IMG/VR virus record: IMGVR_UViG_3300023074_000001
Coordinates: 1 to 64,000 of that record
DNA length: 64,000 nt
Direction: 5' to 3' (one strand)
From: a virus
The position numbers were made by a program, and so were the translations under genes. This document shows positions 25,810-35,443 of this stretch, in pieces (within the stretch, counting starts at the first letter, position 1; every line of letters starts with the position of its first letter). The notes beneath the pieces were generated by a model. It searched no databases. It saw only the letters and a program-made list of their open reading frames with translations, and was not told where the DNA came from.

Positions 25810-25878
25810 GCCCCTGCTATAGGATATAGACTCAGGTCTTCTAAACCAGATGAGAAGGTTCGAATCCTTCCAGGGGCG
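25810..25878 (+). tRNA. tRNA-Arg(TCT) with short D arm
   Basis: GCCCCTG/CAGGGGC acceptor; CTTCTAA loop. Confidence 0.82.
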
Positions 25879-32310: not shown

Positions 32311-32611
32311 TATGTTTATGCTAATTGCTATTAGTATAGCAATGATTGCAGTATTTACTAATTTTTTCGGTCTAGGTAGTTATCAGCGAGGAACCTGGTA
32401 TGAGGTTTCCTACGATGAGCTTGACACGACGATGAAGAAGCTATATGCTCTCAAGGCGTTCAACGATTCTGATGGAATCCCTCAGGAGCAGTTGAAGGTC
32501 AAGGCGTTTGTACAGGACGGCCAGGTGTGCTACCTTGTACGGGTACCGAAATGGATTTTCAAGAATGTTGAAATAGAGTTGACCGAAGCCAAAAGACGCG
32601 AGCTGATCGGC

Positions 32612-32640
32612 TTGACACCGTAAGATAGCTAGTGTAAAGT
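32612..32640 (+). promoter_or_regulatory. SigA-type promoter for the tRNA-Glu / Y RNA / rsr unit
   Basis: TTGACA-17bp-TAAAGT. Confidence 0.75.
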
Positions 32641-32709
32641 AAAACTTGTCAGGGCGGCAAGCCTGCTTAAATGTGTATGCCTCGGATCTACGAGCAGCCC
32701 TGACAACAT

Positions 32710-32782
32710 GGTCTCATCGTCTAGTGGACAAGGACGCAACCCTCTCAAGGTTGAAACGAGAGTTCAATTCTCTCTGGGACTA
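32710..32782 (+). tRNA. tRNA-Glu(CTC)
   Basis: CAACC-CTCTCAA-GGTTG. Confidence 0.92.
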
Positions 32783-32786
32783 CAAA

Positions 32787-32872
32787 GTTGAGCCGAATAG
32801 GTATTGGTTATCTAATTATATGTAAATTAACCGCCCCCTTGGGGCATCTCCAATCCTAAATCCATGTTCAAC
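32787..32872 (+). ncRNA. Y RNA-like element 1 (no tRNA module)
   Basis: GTTGAGC-CGAA-stem-TTATC...CAT-GTTCAAC; upstream of rsr. Confidence 0.7.
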
Positions 32873-32883
32873 CTTTAATTTTA

Positions 32884-32949
32884 GTAGAGTCGGAGTTAGT
32901 GGTTTATCTTACTTACAAATAAAAATACCACTAACAAAACATATTCTAC
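32884..32949 (+). ncRNA. Y RNA-like element 2 (minimal)
   Basis: GTAGAGT-CGGA-GTTAGTGGT-TTATC...ACCACTAAC...CAT-ATTCTAC. Confidence 0.7.
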
Positions 32950-32956
32950 GTATTTT

Positions 32957-33029
32957 GCCGCCGTAGCTTAGAGGACAAAGCAGCTGCACGACATGCAGAA
33001 GAACGTGGGTTCAACTCCTACCGGCAGCA
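32957..33029 (+). tRNA. tRNA-Val(GAC), atypical anticodon loop
   Basis: CTGC-ACGACAT-GCAG; no U33. Confidence 0.7.
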
Positions 33030-33034
33030 CAAGC

Positions 33035-33157
33035 AGTGAGTCGAACAGAAAACGATTATCTTACTATTATCAGGAAACTGCTGGGTTCAACTCCCAGGAC
33101 ATCCACGAGGGTGTTGCAGGCTTGCCTTAAACTCGTCTTCTACCCTTTATATTCACT
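33035..33157 (+). ncRNA. YrlA-like Y RNA with permuted tRNA module
   Basis: AGTGAGT-CGAA...T arm CTGGG-TTCAACT-CCCAG, closed acceptor-like GACATCC-ACGA-GGGTGTT...TAT-ATTCACT. Confidence 0.8.
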
Positions 33158-33519
33158 ACTTACTTTCATGGAGGCTTTAACTTGTCTTTCAAGGAAACCA
33201 AGGCACTTAAGGCTGCTGCTCAGAAGCTTGCTGCGGCGAGAAAAGAATTGTTTGCGGCGCAAAAAGCAAAGTCTAGAGATGCAGCTCTAATCAAAGAGCT
33301 TGAGAAGCAAGTAGCTAATCTCACCTATTTCCATAGTCATCTTTTTTACGATGCTAATAAGGATGCGAGACCGTAATTTATGGCAGACAACAAAGAAACA
33401 CGTGCAAAAGTAAGTAAAGCAGCTAATAGCTTAACACGAGCTAAAGAAGCTAAGCTAGATCAATCTGATGCTCGTGAAAAGCTTAGAAAAGCTATTGCTG
33501 AGTACGACAAGTAATACTT

Positions 33520-33640
33520 ATTGGCGAGTCGTAGTTGAATGGTTAACAGTCCAAACCGCTTGCGTGGGTTCGATTCCCACTTCGTAGTTTAATGGCAGAA
33601 CAGCGGTCATCTTCCGTTTAACGATCCTATATTCGCCAAT
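33520..33640 (+). ncRNA. YrlA-like Y RNA with T arm then D arm and no acceptor stem
   Basis: ATTGGCGAGT-CGTA...GTGGG-TTCGATT-CCCAC-TTCG-TAGTTTAATGGCAGAAC...TAT-ATTCGCCAAT. Confidence 0.8.
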
Positions 33641-33643
33641 CAT

Positions 33644-33732
33644 GCTCTTGCTAGGGACCAACGAAGTCGCGTTCGTTGAGCGTAGACCGGCGGGTTTATG
33701 ATGGGAAGGTTCGAATCCTTCCAAGGGCACCA
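33644..33732 (+). ncRNA. tRNA-like RNA (acceptor + T arm + CCA, remodelled interior)
   Basis: GCTCTTG/CAAGGGC-A-CCA; GAAGG-TTCGAAT-CCTTC; two internal hairpins. Confidence 0.65.
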
Positions 33733-33779
33733 TTCGTAATATTCAATTTTCATTGAGTCGAAAGAGAGGCTATAAGCCC

Positions 33780-35381
33780 ATGTCAGCACTAAAGAAGTAT
33801 TCAACTAATTCATTCTCCCAGACTGAGAAGGCTCGTACCGATCAGGTGCAGAACTCAGCCGGTGGCTATGTTTTCAAGGTAAACGATCTCAAGCGTCTTG
33901 AGCGATTCCTTATCATCGGAACTGATGGTGGAACCTACTATGTCGGTGAGCGCGACCTTACTAAGGCTAACGTTGATTTTATTCGTGAGATGATTGCTAA
34001 GTCTCCTGAGACTGTTCTACACACCGTTGTAGATGTTTCAGATAAGGGTCGTGCATATCGTAACGACGCAGCTATCTTTGTGCTTGCGCTTATGCTTAAC
34101 GATGCTCCTGCTGATTTCAAGGCTCAGATAGTTGAGGCTGTACCGGCTGTTGCTCGTATCGCTACTCACGTATTTCAGCTTGCTGCTTACATCGAGAACC
34201 TTGGTGGTTGGGGCCGTGCAAAGCGTCGTGCTATTGCTAAGTGGTTTGAGTCAAAGTCAGCGGATCAGCTTGCATACCAGGCTGTAAAGTACCGTCAGCG
34301 TGATGGTTGGACCATGAAGGATCTTATGCGTCTGAGCCACGTTAAGGGTGTAGATGAGCGTGTAGGCGGGTTCATTCTTGGTCGTGAGACTAACCCTGGT
34401 GGGGACATCATTGATGGTTTCCAGACCATGCAGCTTGCGCTTTCGCCTTCTGAGGTAATTTCTACTCTTGGGCGTTACCCTAATCTGCCTTGGGAGACTA
34501 TTCCTACTCAGTTCCTCAAGGATGCTGAGGTTTGGAAGACTCTATTTGCGAATGGTCAGCTTAAGGGGCAGGCTCTAGTACGTAACATCACTAGGCTTTC
34601 GCGTATTGGCGCATTCAACGATATGGTATTCGCTCGTGAGGTAGCTGACAAGCTTGTTGATTCTGACATGATTGCGAAGACTCGTCTTCACCCAATCCAG
34701 TATCTTCTGGCTTCTGTTACTCACCGTACGGGGCAGATGGATCGTAATGGTTATGGTAGTTTCTATGGTGCAGCTCGTAAGCGTGACTGGGAGATCGTTC
34801 CAGTAATTGCTGATGCGCTGGATGCAGGATTCTACCAGTCATTTAAGTCTATCGTTCCGGCAAACAAGCGTACTATGCTTGGCCTGGATATTTCAGGTTC
34901 TATGGCCGCTACTGCTCTAGGAATTGATTTGAGCTGTGCTCAGGTTTCTGCTGCTATGGCTATGGTCACAGCTCGTACTGAGCCATACACCATGATTCGT
35001 GGATTCTCTACGCAGTTCAAGGATCTAGGCATTACTCCTAATCAGGATTTTGCTACAGTTATGAGTAAGATTAGTAACCAGAACTTTGGTGGTACTGACT
35101 GCGCACAACCTATGATTTGGGCAATGGAGAACAAGGTTGAAGTTGATACCTTTGCTGTCTTTACCGACTCAGAAACTTGGGCTGGTAGGACGCAGCCATT
35201 CCAAGCATTGAAGCGATACCATCAGAAGATGGGTATTGATGCTAAGCTGGCAGTTTTCGGTGTTGCTAGCACGGAGTTCACTATTGCAGATCCTAGTGAT
35301 TCTGCGGGAATGATGGACTTCTGCGGTTTTGATTCCAACGCAGCTAGTGTGTTTGCTGACTTCTCAGCAGGTCGTCTGTAA
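33780..35381 (+). CDS. rsr: Ro60/Rsr (TROVE + vWA) RNA-binding protein
   Basis: NSAGGYVF, RFLIIGTDGGTYY, GWGRAKRRAI, KYRQRDGW, vWA DISGSM, GGTDCAQP, TDSETW. Confidence 0.96.
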   Translation: MSALKKYSTNSFSQTEKARTDQVQNSAGGYVFKVNDLKRLERFLIIGTDGGTYYVGERDLTKANVDFIREMIAKSPETVLHTVVDVSDKGRAYRNDAAIFVLALMLNDAPADFKAQIVEAVPAVARIATHVFQLAAYIENLGGWGRAKRRAIAKWFESKSADQLAYQAVKYRQRDGWTMKDLMRLSHVKGVDERVGGFILGRETNPGGDIIDGFQTMQLALSPSEVISTLGRYPNLPWETIPTQFLKDAEVWKTLFANGQLKGQALVRNITRLSRIGAFNDMVFAREVADKLVDSDMIAKTRLHPIQYLLASVTHRTGQMDRNGYGSFYGAARKRDWEIVPVIADALDAGFYQSFKSIVPANKRTMLGLDISGSMAATALGIDLSCAQVSAAMAMVTARTEPYTMIRGFSTQFKDLGITPNQDFATVMSKISNQNFGGTDCAQPMIWAMENKVEVDTFAVFTDSETWAGRTQPFQALKRYHQKMGIDAKLAVFGVASTEFTIADPSDSAGMMDFCGFDSNAASVFADFSAGRL

Positions 35382-35394
35382 GGTTTGACAGTAT

Positions 35395-35443
35395 AAGTAG
35401 CGAGTGGTAGAGTTTAGCTCAGTAGCCACTCGCTACTTTTTTA
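35395..35443 (+). terminator. intrinsic terminator after rsr, overlapping the next promoter
   Basis: AAGTAGCGAGTGG/CCACTCGCTACTT followed by a T tract. Confidence 0.75.

What the first reader, a model, noticed from the sequence alone, without database searches (positions are those of the whole stretch)
33733..33782. Permuted Y-RNA motif at the rsr ribosome-binding site: candidate autoregulatory operator
Seen: the leader reads TTCG-TAAT-ATTCAAT-TTTC-ATTGAGT-CGAA-AGAGAGG-N10-ATG. It contains both strands of the shared Y motif (AT-ATTC and GAGT-CGAA) in reversed order, as a hairpin touching the Shine-Dalgarno. Inference: free Ro60 binds this Y-RNA mimic and represses its own translation, balancing protein to Y RNA. 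I know of no description of this for rsr.
Basis: partly seen in the sequence, partly recalled or inferred. Interest (0 to 1): 0.8.

Follow-up and report, generated by a model that had tools for sequence, protein, structure and literature searches.

The report
Y-RNA-mimic hairpin before phage Ro60
Just before the ribosome-binding site of this phage's Ro60 gene sits a small hairpin that copies, with its two strands swapped, the stem by which Ro60 is thought to grip its partner Y RNAs; the same device recurs before Ro60 genes of many phages and bacteria, so Ro60 probably limits its own synthesis, although nobody has tested this.

Summary
At 33733-33782 the leader of a phage Ro60 (rsr) gene reads exactly as described. 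It folds into a 7-bp hairpin whose two strands are those of the closing helix of four Y RNAs just upstream, in swapped order. Its 3' flank is G-U-CGAA-A-G, the published candidate Rsr-recognition motif GNCGAAN0-1G, and it runs into the Shine-Dalgarno.

A compact permuted hairpin of this kind ends within 45 nt of the start in 65 of 173 distinct rsr leaders (46 of 94 viral, 19 of 79 bacterial). These comprise 28 distinct stems, with at least 22 changes of state on the Ro60 tree. Flank letters that the search did not constrain match those of Y RNAs.

It is not universal. The window's closest relatives instead place a normal Y RNA against the Shine-Dalgarno, and 53 of 173 leaders show neither arrangement.

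Best reading (about 0.55): an autogenous translational operator that mimics Y RNA. Ro60 binding and repression are untested. The outer TTCG/CGAA pairing is peculiar to this phage.

Eight full-text searches found no description. Two key reviews were not held. This scan has noted the same device in at least 18 other genomes.

The parts
33741..33747 (+). Upstream arm of the leader hairpin (ATTCAAT). It is the equivalent of the 3' strand of the Y-RNA closing helix.
33737..33740 (+). TAAT flank. Its last two letters, AU, stand before the 3'-type strand, as in the Y RNAs.
   Evidence: AU precedes the strand in 40 of 65 leader hairpins. In viral hairpins A is 82% at position -2 and U is 87% at -1, against about 30% in background.
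33748..33751 (+). Loop TTTC. It closes the end of the helix that is open (5' and 3' termini) in Y RNAs.
33752..33758 (+). Downstream arm (ATTGAGT). It is the equivalent of the 5' strand of the Y-RNA helix.
33757..33764 (+). G-U-C-G-A-A-A-G, a letter-for-letter fit to the published YrlA motif GNCGAAN0-1G. Its last G lies inside the Shine-Dalgarno.
   Evidence: The motif is from PMC4201824, section 6.
33733..33736 (+). TTCG, which pairs with CGAA 33759-62 in the minimum-energy fold. This outer helix is specific to the window and is not conserved in other leaders. It could alternatively pair with ACGAA at 33661-65.
33763..33769 (+). Shine-Dalgarno AGAGAGG, directly after the hairpin.
   Evidence: It is conserved in L015 and L019.
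33768..33778 (+). Mini-hairpin GGCU-AUA-AGCC between the Shine-Dalgarno and the AUG.
   Evidence: The same letters occur in L015 and L018, and a variant in L002/L016 and L019.
33780..35381 (+). rsr / Ro60 gene (533 aa).
32787..32872 (+). Y RNA candidate Y0 (helix GUUGAGC/GUUCAAC).
32884..32949 (+). Y RNA candidate Y1 (helix GUAGAGU/AUUCUAC). It is short and has no tRNA-like module.
33035..33157 (+). Y RNA candidate Y2 (helix AGUGAGU/AUUCACU). Both of its strands are the nearest in letters to the leader hairpin.
33523..33637 (+). Y RNA candidate Y3 (helix GGCGAGU/AUUCGCC), with T- and D-arm-like parts.
   Evidence: The Rfam YrlA match is weak: 17.4 bits against a gathering score of 69, E 0.66.
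33644..33732 (+). tRNA-like element with a 7-bp acceptor stem, a T arm and an encoded CCA. It ends one base before the hairpin region. ARAGORN and Rfam do not call it.
   Evidence: read by eye.
32612..32640 (+). Promoter-like site (TTGACA-17-TAAAGT). It is the only one on the + strand upstream of rsr in 32600-33780.
   Evidence: The number of sites is not above shuffles, so this is weak.
35421..35437 (+). Terminator-like hairpin with a T run after the rsr stop.
   Evidence: weak

Best explanation
The hairpin is a cis-acting copy of the Ro60-docking helix of Y RNAs, built into the rsr mRNA at its ribosome-binding site. It most likely works as an autogenous translational operator. Three things are shown here. 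The leader carries the same helix letters (GAGU paired with AUUC, plus three covarying pairs). It carries the same unpaired flanks (AU before, CGAA after) as the four Y RNAs encoded upstream, with the far end closed by a loop instead of by the RNA termini. Its 3' flank runs straight into the Shine-Dalgarno. One step is inferred from published work on Y RNAs: that this helix and motif is what Ro60/Rsr recognises, mainly through the 5' strand. The remaining steps are inferred without a test. Ro60 not occupied by Y RNA would bind the leader, and a 60-kDa ring seated 0-4 nt from the Shine-Dalgarno would keep the 30S subunit off. When Y RNAs are in excess they would take up Ro60 and translation would resume, so that the protein is matched to its RNA partners. 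The mRNA is probably cut out of a long tRNA/Y-RNA precursor, so its 5' end may lie at or just before the hairpin. In relatives without the hairpin, a complete Y RNA lies against the Shine-Dalgarno and may serve as the same kind of site.
For: (1) Anatomy. The letters and the fold are as described. There is one swapped-order copy in the window, and it is at rsr.
(2) Published motif. GNCGAAN0-1G near the 5' end of YrlA RNAs overlaps the sequences needed for Rsr binding and resembles the GGUCCGA contacted by X. laevis Ro60, and Ro60 contacts mainly the 5' strand (PMC4201824 section 6; passages of bioRxiv 10.1101/312249). The window reads GUCGAAAG.
(3) Recurrence. Of 173 distinct rsr leaders, 65 have a compact swapped-order hairpin (at least 5 bp, loop up to 8 nt) ending within 45 nt of the start: 46 of 94 viral and 19 of 79 bacterial.
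(4) A conditional test that is not circular. GRGHCGNN occurs 81 times in the leader windows and 66 of those (81%) have a local upstream partner. Elsewhere in the same loci 393 of 3450 (11%) do (odds ratio 34). The p value is inflated by relatedness.
(5) Diversity. There are 56 distinct hairpins, 28 distinct stems and 12 combinations of core pairs. The state changes at least 22 times on a Ro60 tree of 171 of the 173 rows, against 46-56 changes in the 10 printed of 200 label shuffles.
(6) Unconstrained flanks match Y RNAs. In viral hairpins the two letters after CG are R in 92% and A in 68%, and the two letters before are A in 82% and U in 87%. In Y-type helices the figures are 87%, 71%, 50% and 54%. 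Background is 20-32% per letter. The bacterial set shows the same trend.
(7) Position. The distance from the core to the start codon peaks at 10-18 nt, so CGRA is followed at once by the Shine-Dalgarno. In several clades the Shine-Dalgarno lies inside the stem (L005/L022, L027, L066, L067, L119).
(8) The hairpin persists where no Y RNA is adjacent. In Spelly and Tomas the intergenic gaps are 36 and 28 nt, and in L029 and L033 the hairpin overlaps the end of an upstream open frame.
(9) Complementary arrangement. Of the 108 leaders without the hairpin, 55 have a normal-order Y-type helix ending within 60 nt of the start, against 0.045 expected per window.
Against: There are no binding, toeprint, reporter or expression data. 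The hairpin is thermodynamically ordinary (z -0.11). The closest relatives lack it: L014 at 76%, L015 at 75%, and L001 and L002 at 70-71%. Neither arrangement lies within 60 nt of the start in 53 of 173 leaders. Of the two Mycobacterium phages sampled, neither has it, out of 211 such records with Ro60. The leader helix does not always use the letters of the same phage's Y RNAs: in Jada the Y RNAs read GGGU/AUCC and the leader reads GGGC/GCCC. Only 26 of 65 hairpins fit CGRA-N0-1-G exactly. A 4-bp covariance model built from the hairpins was too weak even to recover the window's own copy. The core pairs in my alignment pair by construction of the scan.
Confidence: 0.55

Rival explanations
1. 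Ro60 does bind the hairpin, but the outcome is not a translational block. Possibilities are protection of the processed 5' end of the mRNA, delivery of the mRNA to an exonuclease as Y RNA tethers Rsr to PNPase, or activation by remodelling the Shine-Dalgarno region.
For: The mimicry evidence is the same as for the main reading. The hairpin starts one to five bases after a tRNA-like element with CCA, and no promoter-like site lies between 32640 and the gene, so it may sit at the very 5' end of a processed mRNA. A second mini-hairpin covers part of the Shine-Dalgarno.
Against: The constant feature across clades is contact with or overlap of the Shine-Dalgarno. That is what a block of initiation needs and what a 5'-end cap does not. 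In L029, L033, Spelly and Tomas the hairpin follows a coding gene and not a processing site.
Confidence: 0.2
2. The shared helix and flanks are a signal for something other than Ro60, for example a processing nuclease or modification enzyme that matures Y RNAs and also cuts or marks the rsr mRNA. Alternatively the hairpin is only a structural context for the ribosome-binding site.
For: Y RNAs, tRNAs and rsr appear to be one transcription unit. In M. smegmatis YrlA and YrlB lie upstream of Rsr and are processed from a single precursor (PMC4201824, passage). No binding data exist for any of these phage RNAs.
Against: The conserved letters coincide with the motif that published mutational and structural work assigns to Ro60/Rsr recognition. 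The element is tied to rsr itself: the strict scan finds only one swapped-order copy in 64 kb.
Confidence: 0.12
3. It is a relic without function, left from a junction between two tandem Y RNAs (the 3' strand of one followed by the 5' strand of the next) or from a decayed Y RNA that once lay against the gene.
For: In relatives a whole Y RNA occupies this place (L015, L002). At a tandem Y-Y junction in L024 the two neighbouring strands can pair over 9 bp. The letters ACGA(A)GU at 33661-67 and AUUCGU at 33732-37 resemble the helix of the Y RNA of L001/L002.
Against: A relic would not keep a perfect 7-bp stem and both flanks. It would not recur with 28 different stems and at least 22 changes of state. 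It would not be kept in 28-36-nt gaps behind protein genes. An internal deletion of a Y RNA would leave the strands in normal order.
Confidence: 0.06
4. It is a chance resemblance in AT-rich leader sequence.
For: The two hexamers in this order occur by chance at 0.13 per window. The fold is not unusually stable.
Against: It lies at the one place predicted, with extra complementarity. It also recurs in 65 of 173 leaders, against about 0.045 expected per leader window for the looser scan with loops up to 25 nt.
Confidence: 0.02

Closest known systems
Ro60-binding stem of Y RNAs (bacterial and phage YrlA/YrlB, D. radiodurans Yrn1, metazoan Y RNAs)
   Same: It has the same helix letters and the same flanks as the window's own four Y RNAs. 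It contains GNCGAAN0-1G, the motif that Chen et al. 2014 propose for Rsr recognition.
   Different: The strand order is swapped. The end that holds the 5' and 3' termini in a Y RNA is closed by a 4-nt loop. The side that leads to the effector or tRNA-like module is open and continues into the Shine-Dalgarno. There is no effector module. It is part of an mRNA and not a stable small RNA.
Autogenous translational operators that mimic the protein's main RNA ligand (E. coli thrS operator mimicking the tRNA-Thr anticodon arm; ribosomal-protein leaders such as S8, S15, L1, L20). These are recalled from general knowledge and were not read here.
   Same: A copy of the ligand's binding site is placed at the ribosome-binding site of the protein's own mRNA. 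Competition between the ligand and the mRNA would set the protein level.
   Different: The protein is Ro60 and the ligand is Y RNA. The copy is a circular permutation of the ligand's helix. Nothing has been tested.
Coat-protein operator hairpin of RNA phages (MS2/R17 replicase start). Recalled, not read here.
   Same: A small hairpin at the Shine-Dalgarno or start is bound by a protein to shut off translation. In some rsr clades the Shine-Dalgarno lies inside the stem (L005, L027, L066, L119).
   Different: That system represses another gene and involves no mimicry of a separate RNA partner.
Rfam families (release 15)
   Same: The upstream Y3 gives a sub-threshold YrlA match.
   Different: No family matches 33733-33782 even at E up to 10. 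At gathering thresholds only tRNAs are found in the window.

Membership tests
Y RNA (YrlA type) | [quoted passage not shown] | tested here: not met
   The stem is a local hairpin with the strands in the opposite order, closed by a loop where a Y RNA has its termini.
Y RNA (YrlA type) | Motif GNCGAAN0-1G on the 5' strand | tested here: met
   GUCGAAAG at 33757-33764. The motif is from PMC4201824, section 6.
Y RNA (YrlA type) | Effector module (large internal loop or tRNA-like T/D-arm domain) | tested here: not met
   There is only a 4-nt loop. The Rfam YrlA model gives no match on the hairpin.
Y RNA (YrlA type) | Stable small RNA bound by Ro60 in cells | not testable with these tools
   No RNA run is listed for this DNA.
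Autogenous translational operator by ligand mimicry | Lies in the protein's own mRNA at or overlapping the ribosome-binding site | tested here: met
   CGAA at 33759-62 is followed at once by AGAGAGG, and the ATG is at 33780. The same position is seen in 65 of 173 leaders.
Autogenous translational operator by ligand mimicry | Resembles the protein's primary RNA ligand in the recognised part | tested here: met
   The helix and flanks equal those of Y0-Y3. The unconstrained flank preferences match those of Y-type helices.
Autogenous translational operator by ligand mimicry | The protein binds the operator | not testable with these tools
   Needs EMSA, filter binding or CLIP.
Autogenous translational operator by ligand mimicry | Binding lowers translation and the free ligand relieves it | not testable with these tools
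   Needs toeprinting and reporter fusions.
Intrinsic terminator | G+C-rich stem followed by a run of U | tested here: not met
   The stem has a single G-C pair among seven, the rest A-U and one G-U, and there is no U run. No terminator-like site was called on the + strand between 32600 and 35420.
Ro60 / Rsr protein (the gene served) | TROVE domain plus vWA domain, and full-length similarity to solved Ro60/Rsr | tested here: met
   Pfam PF05731 and PF25045. 2nvo at 3e-105 and 1yvp at 1.4e-90 over residues 12-532.

The most novel reading that the evidence does not exclude
Ro60 and Y RNAs form a widespread homeostatic circuit. A strand-swapped miniature of the Y-RNA docking helix at the rsr ribosome-binding site is the sensor of free Ro60. 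In other lineages a complete Y RNA placed against that site plays the same part. Y RNAs would then act as anti-repressors of their own binding protein. The device has been gained or lost at least 22 times, in phages and in Actinomycetota, Myxococcota, Armatimonadota and Chloroflexota.
Probability: 0.4. Interest if true: 0.8.

Novelty: new member of a known kind. Interest (0 to 1): 0.66.

Why it matters
How cells and phages keep Ro60 in step with its Y RNAs is not known. A conserved Y-RNA mimic on the rsr ribosome-binding site would give a direct mechanism that is easy to test, as a feedback loop of the thrS or ribosomal-protein type. It would add Ro60 to the RNA-binding proteins that read a copy of their ligand on their own mRNA. 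It would provide a minimal RNA of about 25 nt for studying Ro60 recognition. It also occurs in cultured, tractable systems: Streptomyces phages Jada, Comrade, Spelly, Beuffert, Tomas and Coruscant, and Nocardia and Polyangium strains. For annotation, it marks true rsr starts and shows that phage Y RNAs escape the current Rfam YrlA model.

Tried and rejected
Rfam. At gathering thresholds the window gives only tRNAs (21 matches). At E up to 10 on 33380-33900 nothing covers the hairpin (5 matches).

Exact search. The 23-letter hairpin core has 0 matches in viral contigs.

Covariance model. Model R1, built from 52 hairpins, kept only 4 base pairs. In the own genome it missed the window's hairpin and gave one E 2.2 match inside an apparent coding stretch at G000:130778-130809. 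I dropped the model and used my own scans.

Pair counting. The count of structure pairs on A2 gave 99.6% of cells paired, 38 cells changed on both sides, and 0 of 500 shuffles as high. This is circular for the four core pairs, because the scan that chose the rows required them to pair. I do not use it as evidence of structure. A2 holds 52 of the 65 compact hairpins. I left out 13: nine rows (L052, L061, L064, L069, L070, L071, L085, L092, L169) that are identical or nearly identical in the hairpin to rows kept, L094, which resembles the kept L073 and L050 but differs from each by three or four letters, L053, which the scan picked in a shifted register, and L099 and L151, which are doubtful with 8-nt loops.

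Expression. No RNA holder is listed for window:32700-34700. Logan contigs of four soil runs were laid on 33000-34300. One record covers 33500-33807 with 13 other letters, so near relatives with the same arrangement exist. The table of differences was cut before the hairpin, so nothing can be said about variation in it.

Other readings. A terminator reading was rejected. Chance was rejected. Simple deletion of a Y RNA was rejected because the strand order would then be normal. A promoter reading of the TTGACTC that precedes the Y RNA in L001/L002/L019 was considered and set aside, because by eye no consistent -10 follows.

Literature. Eight full-text searches listed no paper on Ro60/Rsr autoregulation or a leader mimic. 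For most hits I saw only titles and the starts of abstracts. I read section 6 and found passages of PMC4201824. I read found passages of PMC10159003, PMC8058203 and bioRxiv 10.1101/312249. The two main reviews, PMC6047535 and PMC6542706, are not held. Subscription journals are not searched and supplements are closed; the supplemental tables and covariance models of Chen et al. 2014 may list phage Y RNAs. A prior description therefore cannot be excluded.

The statement that 1yvp holds the Y-RNA helix as two separate strands is recalled and was not checked, and I do not rest on it.
Full report
**What the window is**

The window is the first 64 kb of a complete 135,654-bp virus record with terminal repeats. 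It has 23 tRNA genes. It is only distantly related at the DNA level to the tRNA-rich Streptomyces phages: 117 records at 60-80% identity, all over the Ro-like gene. The ORF from ATG 33780 to 35381 is a Ro60/Rsr. Pfam gives TROVE and vWA_Ro60, and full-length similarity to solved structures gives D. radiodurans Rsr 2nvo at 3e-105 and X. laevis Ro60 1yvp at 1.4e-90. Relatives start with the same residues at this ATG, not at the in-frame TTG at 33753 that the ORF listing reports.

**The observation**

Upstream on the same strand a strict scan finds four normal-order Y-type RNAs, at 32787-32872, 32884-32949, 33035-33157 and 33523-33637.
- Each is closed by a 7-bp helix, NNN-GAG(U/C) paired with (A/G)UUC-NNN, in which NNN covaries.
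- Each has AU before the 3' strand and CG(A/G/U)A after the 5' strand.
- The scan finds one element with the two strands in the opposite order, at 33741-33758 (sequences).

The leader strands are closest in letters to those of the third RNA, Y2, and differ from it by a compensated G-C to U-A pair in the stem. Only the fourth RNA touches the Rfam YrlA model, at 17 bits against a gathering score of 69. The hairpin is the minimum-energy fold of 33726-33800 but is not unusually stable (-10.1 kcal/mol, z -0.11). The two hexamers in this order occur once in the window against 0.13 expected.

**The link to published work**

Chen et al. [quoted passage not shown]
- It overlaps the sequences important for Rsr binding in D. 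radiodurans Yrn1.
- It resembles the GGUCCGA contacted by X. laevis Ro60.
- They note that Ro60 mainly contacts the 5' strand.

A 2018 preprint says the same (passages). The window's leader reads G-U-CGAA-A-G at 33757-33764. The last G already lies in the Shine-Dalgarno AGAGAGG.

**Homologous leaders**

I collected rsr loci from four sources:
- IMG/VR: 6 loci with the protein as query and 80 with an alignment.
- Metagenome contigs: 20 loci.
- GenBank phages: 10 sampled of 367 records with a Ro60 homologue.
- One genome per prokaryote species: 80 loci.

I set starts with a local tblastn and the nearest in-frame start. After removing identical leaders, 173 remain: 94 viral and 79 bacterial.

By eye and by scan the swapped-order hairpin recurs directly before the Shine-Dalgarno or start codon.
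- In close relatives of the window it has other stem letters: L033 (64% Ro60 identity), L029 (70%) and L018 (68%).
- In 7 of the 10 named phages sampled it is present: Jada, Comrade, Spelly, Beuffert, Tomas, Coruscant and a Microbacterium phage. There the core reads GGGC/GCCC or GAGC/GCUC.
- It is not present in the two Mycobacterium phages sampled, and FuzzBuster is unclear.
- In bacteria it occurs in Armatimonadales, Myxococcota including two Polyangium isolates, Nocardia and Chloroflexia.

**Counts**
- A loose scan (core GRGH-CG, four core pairs, at least one more pair, loop up to 25 nt) hits 71 of 173 leaders, against 0.045 expected per 52-nt window from the rest of the same loci on both strands.
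- With loops of 8 nt or less the count is 65 of 173: 46 of 94 viral and 19 of 79 bacterial.
- The scan demands pairing, so I also asked a conditional question: given the 5'-strand word GRGHCGNN, how often is a complementary partner just upstream? In the leader windows it is 66 of 81 (81%). Elsewhere it is 393 of 3450 (11%). The odds ratio is 34. The nominal p of 6e-46 is inflated because the sequences are related.
- The 65 comprise 56 distinct hairpins, 28 distinct stems and 12 combinations of core pairs. The fourth core pair is U-A, C-G or A-U.
- On a FastTree of 171 of the 173 Ro60 proteins (two under 350 aa were dropped), presence or absence changes at least 22 times, against 46-56 changes in the 10 printed of 200 label shuffles. 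The trait is inherited within clades but has been gained or lost many times.
- At positions that neither scan constrains, the leader hairpins share the preferences of the Y-type helices and differ from background. After CG, viral hairpins have R in 92% and then A in 68%, and Y helices have 87% and 71%. Before the 3' strand, viral hairpins have A in 82% and U in 87%, and Y helices have 50% and 54%. Background is 20-32% per letter. The bacterial set behaves alike.

**Position**

The distance from the end of the core to the start codon clusters at 10-18 nt. CGRA is therefore followed at once by the Shine-Dalgarno. In L005/L022, L027, L066, L067 and L119 the purine run that must serve as the Shine-Dalgarno is itself the 5'-type strand of the stem.

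The hairpin does not depend on a neighbouring Y RNA.
- In Spelly the gap between the preceding annotated gene and rsr is 36 nt, and in Tomas it is 28 nt. The hairpin and the Shine-Dalgarno almost fill it.
- In L029 and L033 it overlaps the end of a 208-aa and a 169-aa open frame.
- Jada's Y-type RNAs lie 1.7 kb upstream.

**What speaks against, or limits, the reading**
- The window's nearest relatives do not have the hairpin. L014, L015, L001/L017, L002/L016, L019, L020 and L024 (67-76% identity) have a complete normal-order Y RNA whose 3' strand ends 4-12 nt before the Shine-Dalgarno. In L015 the Shine-Dalgarno region is otherwise letter for letter that of the window.
- Of the 108 leaders without the hairpin, 55 have such a helix ending within 60 nt of the start, against 0.045 expected per window from a reverse-strand control. 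The other 53 show neither arrangement.
- Only 26 of 65 hairpins fit CGRA-N0-1-G exactly.
- The leader's core letters need not equal those of the same phage's Y RNAs, as in Jada.
- There are no RNA data (see Tried and rejected).

**Mechanism**

It is shown that a conserved, covarying miniature of the Y-RNA closing helix, with its unpaired flanks, lies on the rsr ribosome-binding site. It is inferred from the literature that this helix and motif is the Ro60 site. It is inferred without any test that free Ro60 binds it and blocks initiation, and that Y RNAs compete.

The swap of strands leaves the local duplex and the polarity of the 5'-type strand unchanged. It only moves the closure from the effector side to the terminal side, which puts the Shine-Dalgarno where a Y RNA's effector module begins.

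The transcription unit probably runs from a promoter-like site at 32612-32640 to a terminator-like hairpin at 35421-35437, with tRNAs, Y RNAs and a tRNA-like element (33644-33732, with encoded CCA) in between. That evidence is weak. I put the operator reading at 0.55. The rivals are Ro60 binding with another outcome (0.20), a signal not read by Ro60 (0.12), a relic (0.06) and chance (0.02).

**Comparison and novelty**

The hairpin works like the thrS and ribosomal-protein operators, which I recall and did not read here. It is not a Y RNA: the terminal stem and the effector module are not met, and only the motif is met. No Rfam family covers it.

Eight full-text searches found no description. 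Two central reviews were not held and supplements are closed.

This scan's own earlier notes describe the same device in at least 18 other genomes, with the same verdicts. I had reached my reading before that look-up. I count those notes as agreement and not as evidence.

I class the finding as a new member of a known kind, with interest 0.66.

Noticed in passing
window 33644-33732: tRNA-like element with a 7-bp acceptor stem (TGCTCTT/AAGGGCA), a good T arm and an encoded CCA. Two odd hairpins stand in place of the D and anticodon arms. ARAGORN and Rfam do not call it. It ends one base before the leader hairpin region and may set the 5' end of the rsr mRNA.
   Followed up: partly
window 33768-33778: Mini-hairpin GGCU-AUA-AGCC between the Shine-Dalgarno and the AUG, taking in the last two G of the Shine-Dalgarno. 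It is identical in L015 and L018 and has variants in L002/L016 and L019. It may shorten the 10-nt spacing or add to occlusion.
   Followed up: no
window 32787-33637: Four Y-type RNAs with different middle modules. All are below the Rfam YrlA gathering score, and only one gives even a weak match, so phage Y RNAs of this clade escape the current model.
   Followed up: partly
L001/L017, L002/L016, L019, L004/L032: the 20 nt before the rsr-proximal Y RNA: A conserved (C)TTGACTC, or CTGACTC in L004/L032, followed by 4-5 nt and GAGTCG. The GACTC can pair with the GAGTC of the Y RNA's 5' strand. This is an alternative small hairpin at the Y RNA's 5' end, just after a tRNA-like 3' end. Its meaning is unknown.
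   Followed up: no
L024:1347-1370 (also L020:457-479): At a junction of two tandem Y RNAs, the 3' strand of the first and the 5' strand of the second can pair with each other (9 bp in L024). This is a possible evolutionary source of swapped-order hairpins.
   Followed up: no
About 420 nt into the rsr coding sequence of L001, L002 and L015-L018 (for example L015:1919-1935): A conserved GGTCTTGG-TGG-TTGGGGTCGTG matches the loose hairpin scan. It encodes the near-invariant GGWGR of Ro60, so it is probably a by-product of codon conservation.
   Followed up: no
window 25810-25878: An Rfam tRNA match at 30.4 bits, just above the gathering score, that ARAGORN does not call. It is one of several aberrant tRNA-like genes in the array.
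   Followed up: no
L039 (Microbacterium phage FuzzBuster), about 60-90 nt before the annotated rsr ATG: A GGGTCGAAGG word with a possible upstream partner lies well upstream of the annotated start. Either it is the 5' end of a Y RNA or the start is mis-set.
   Followed up: no
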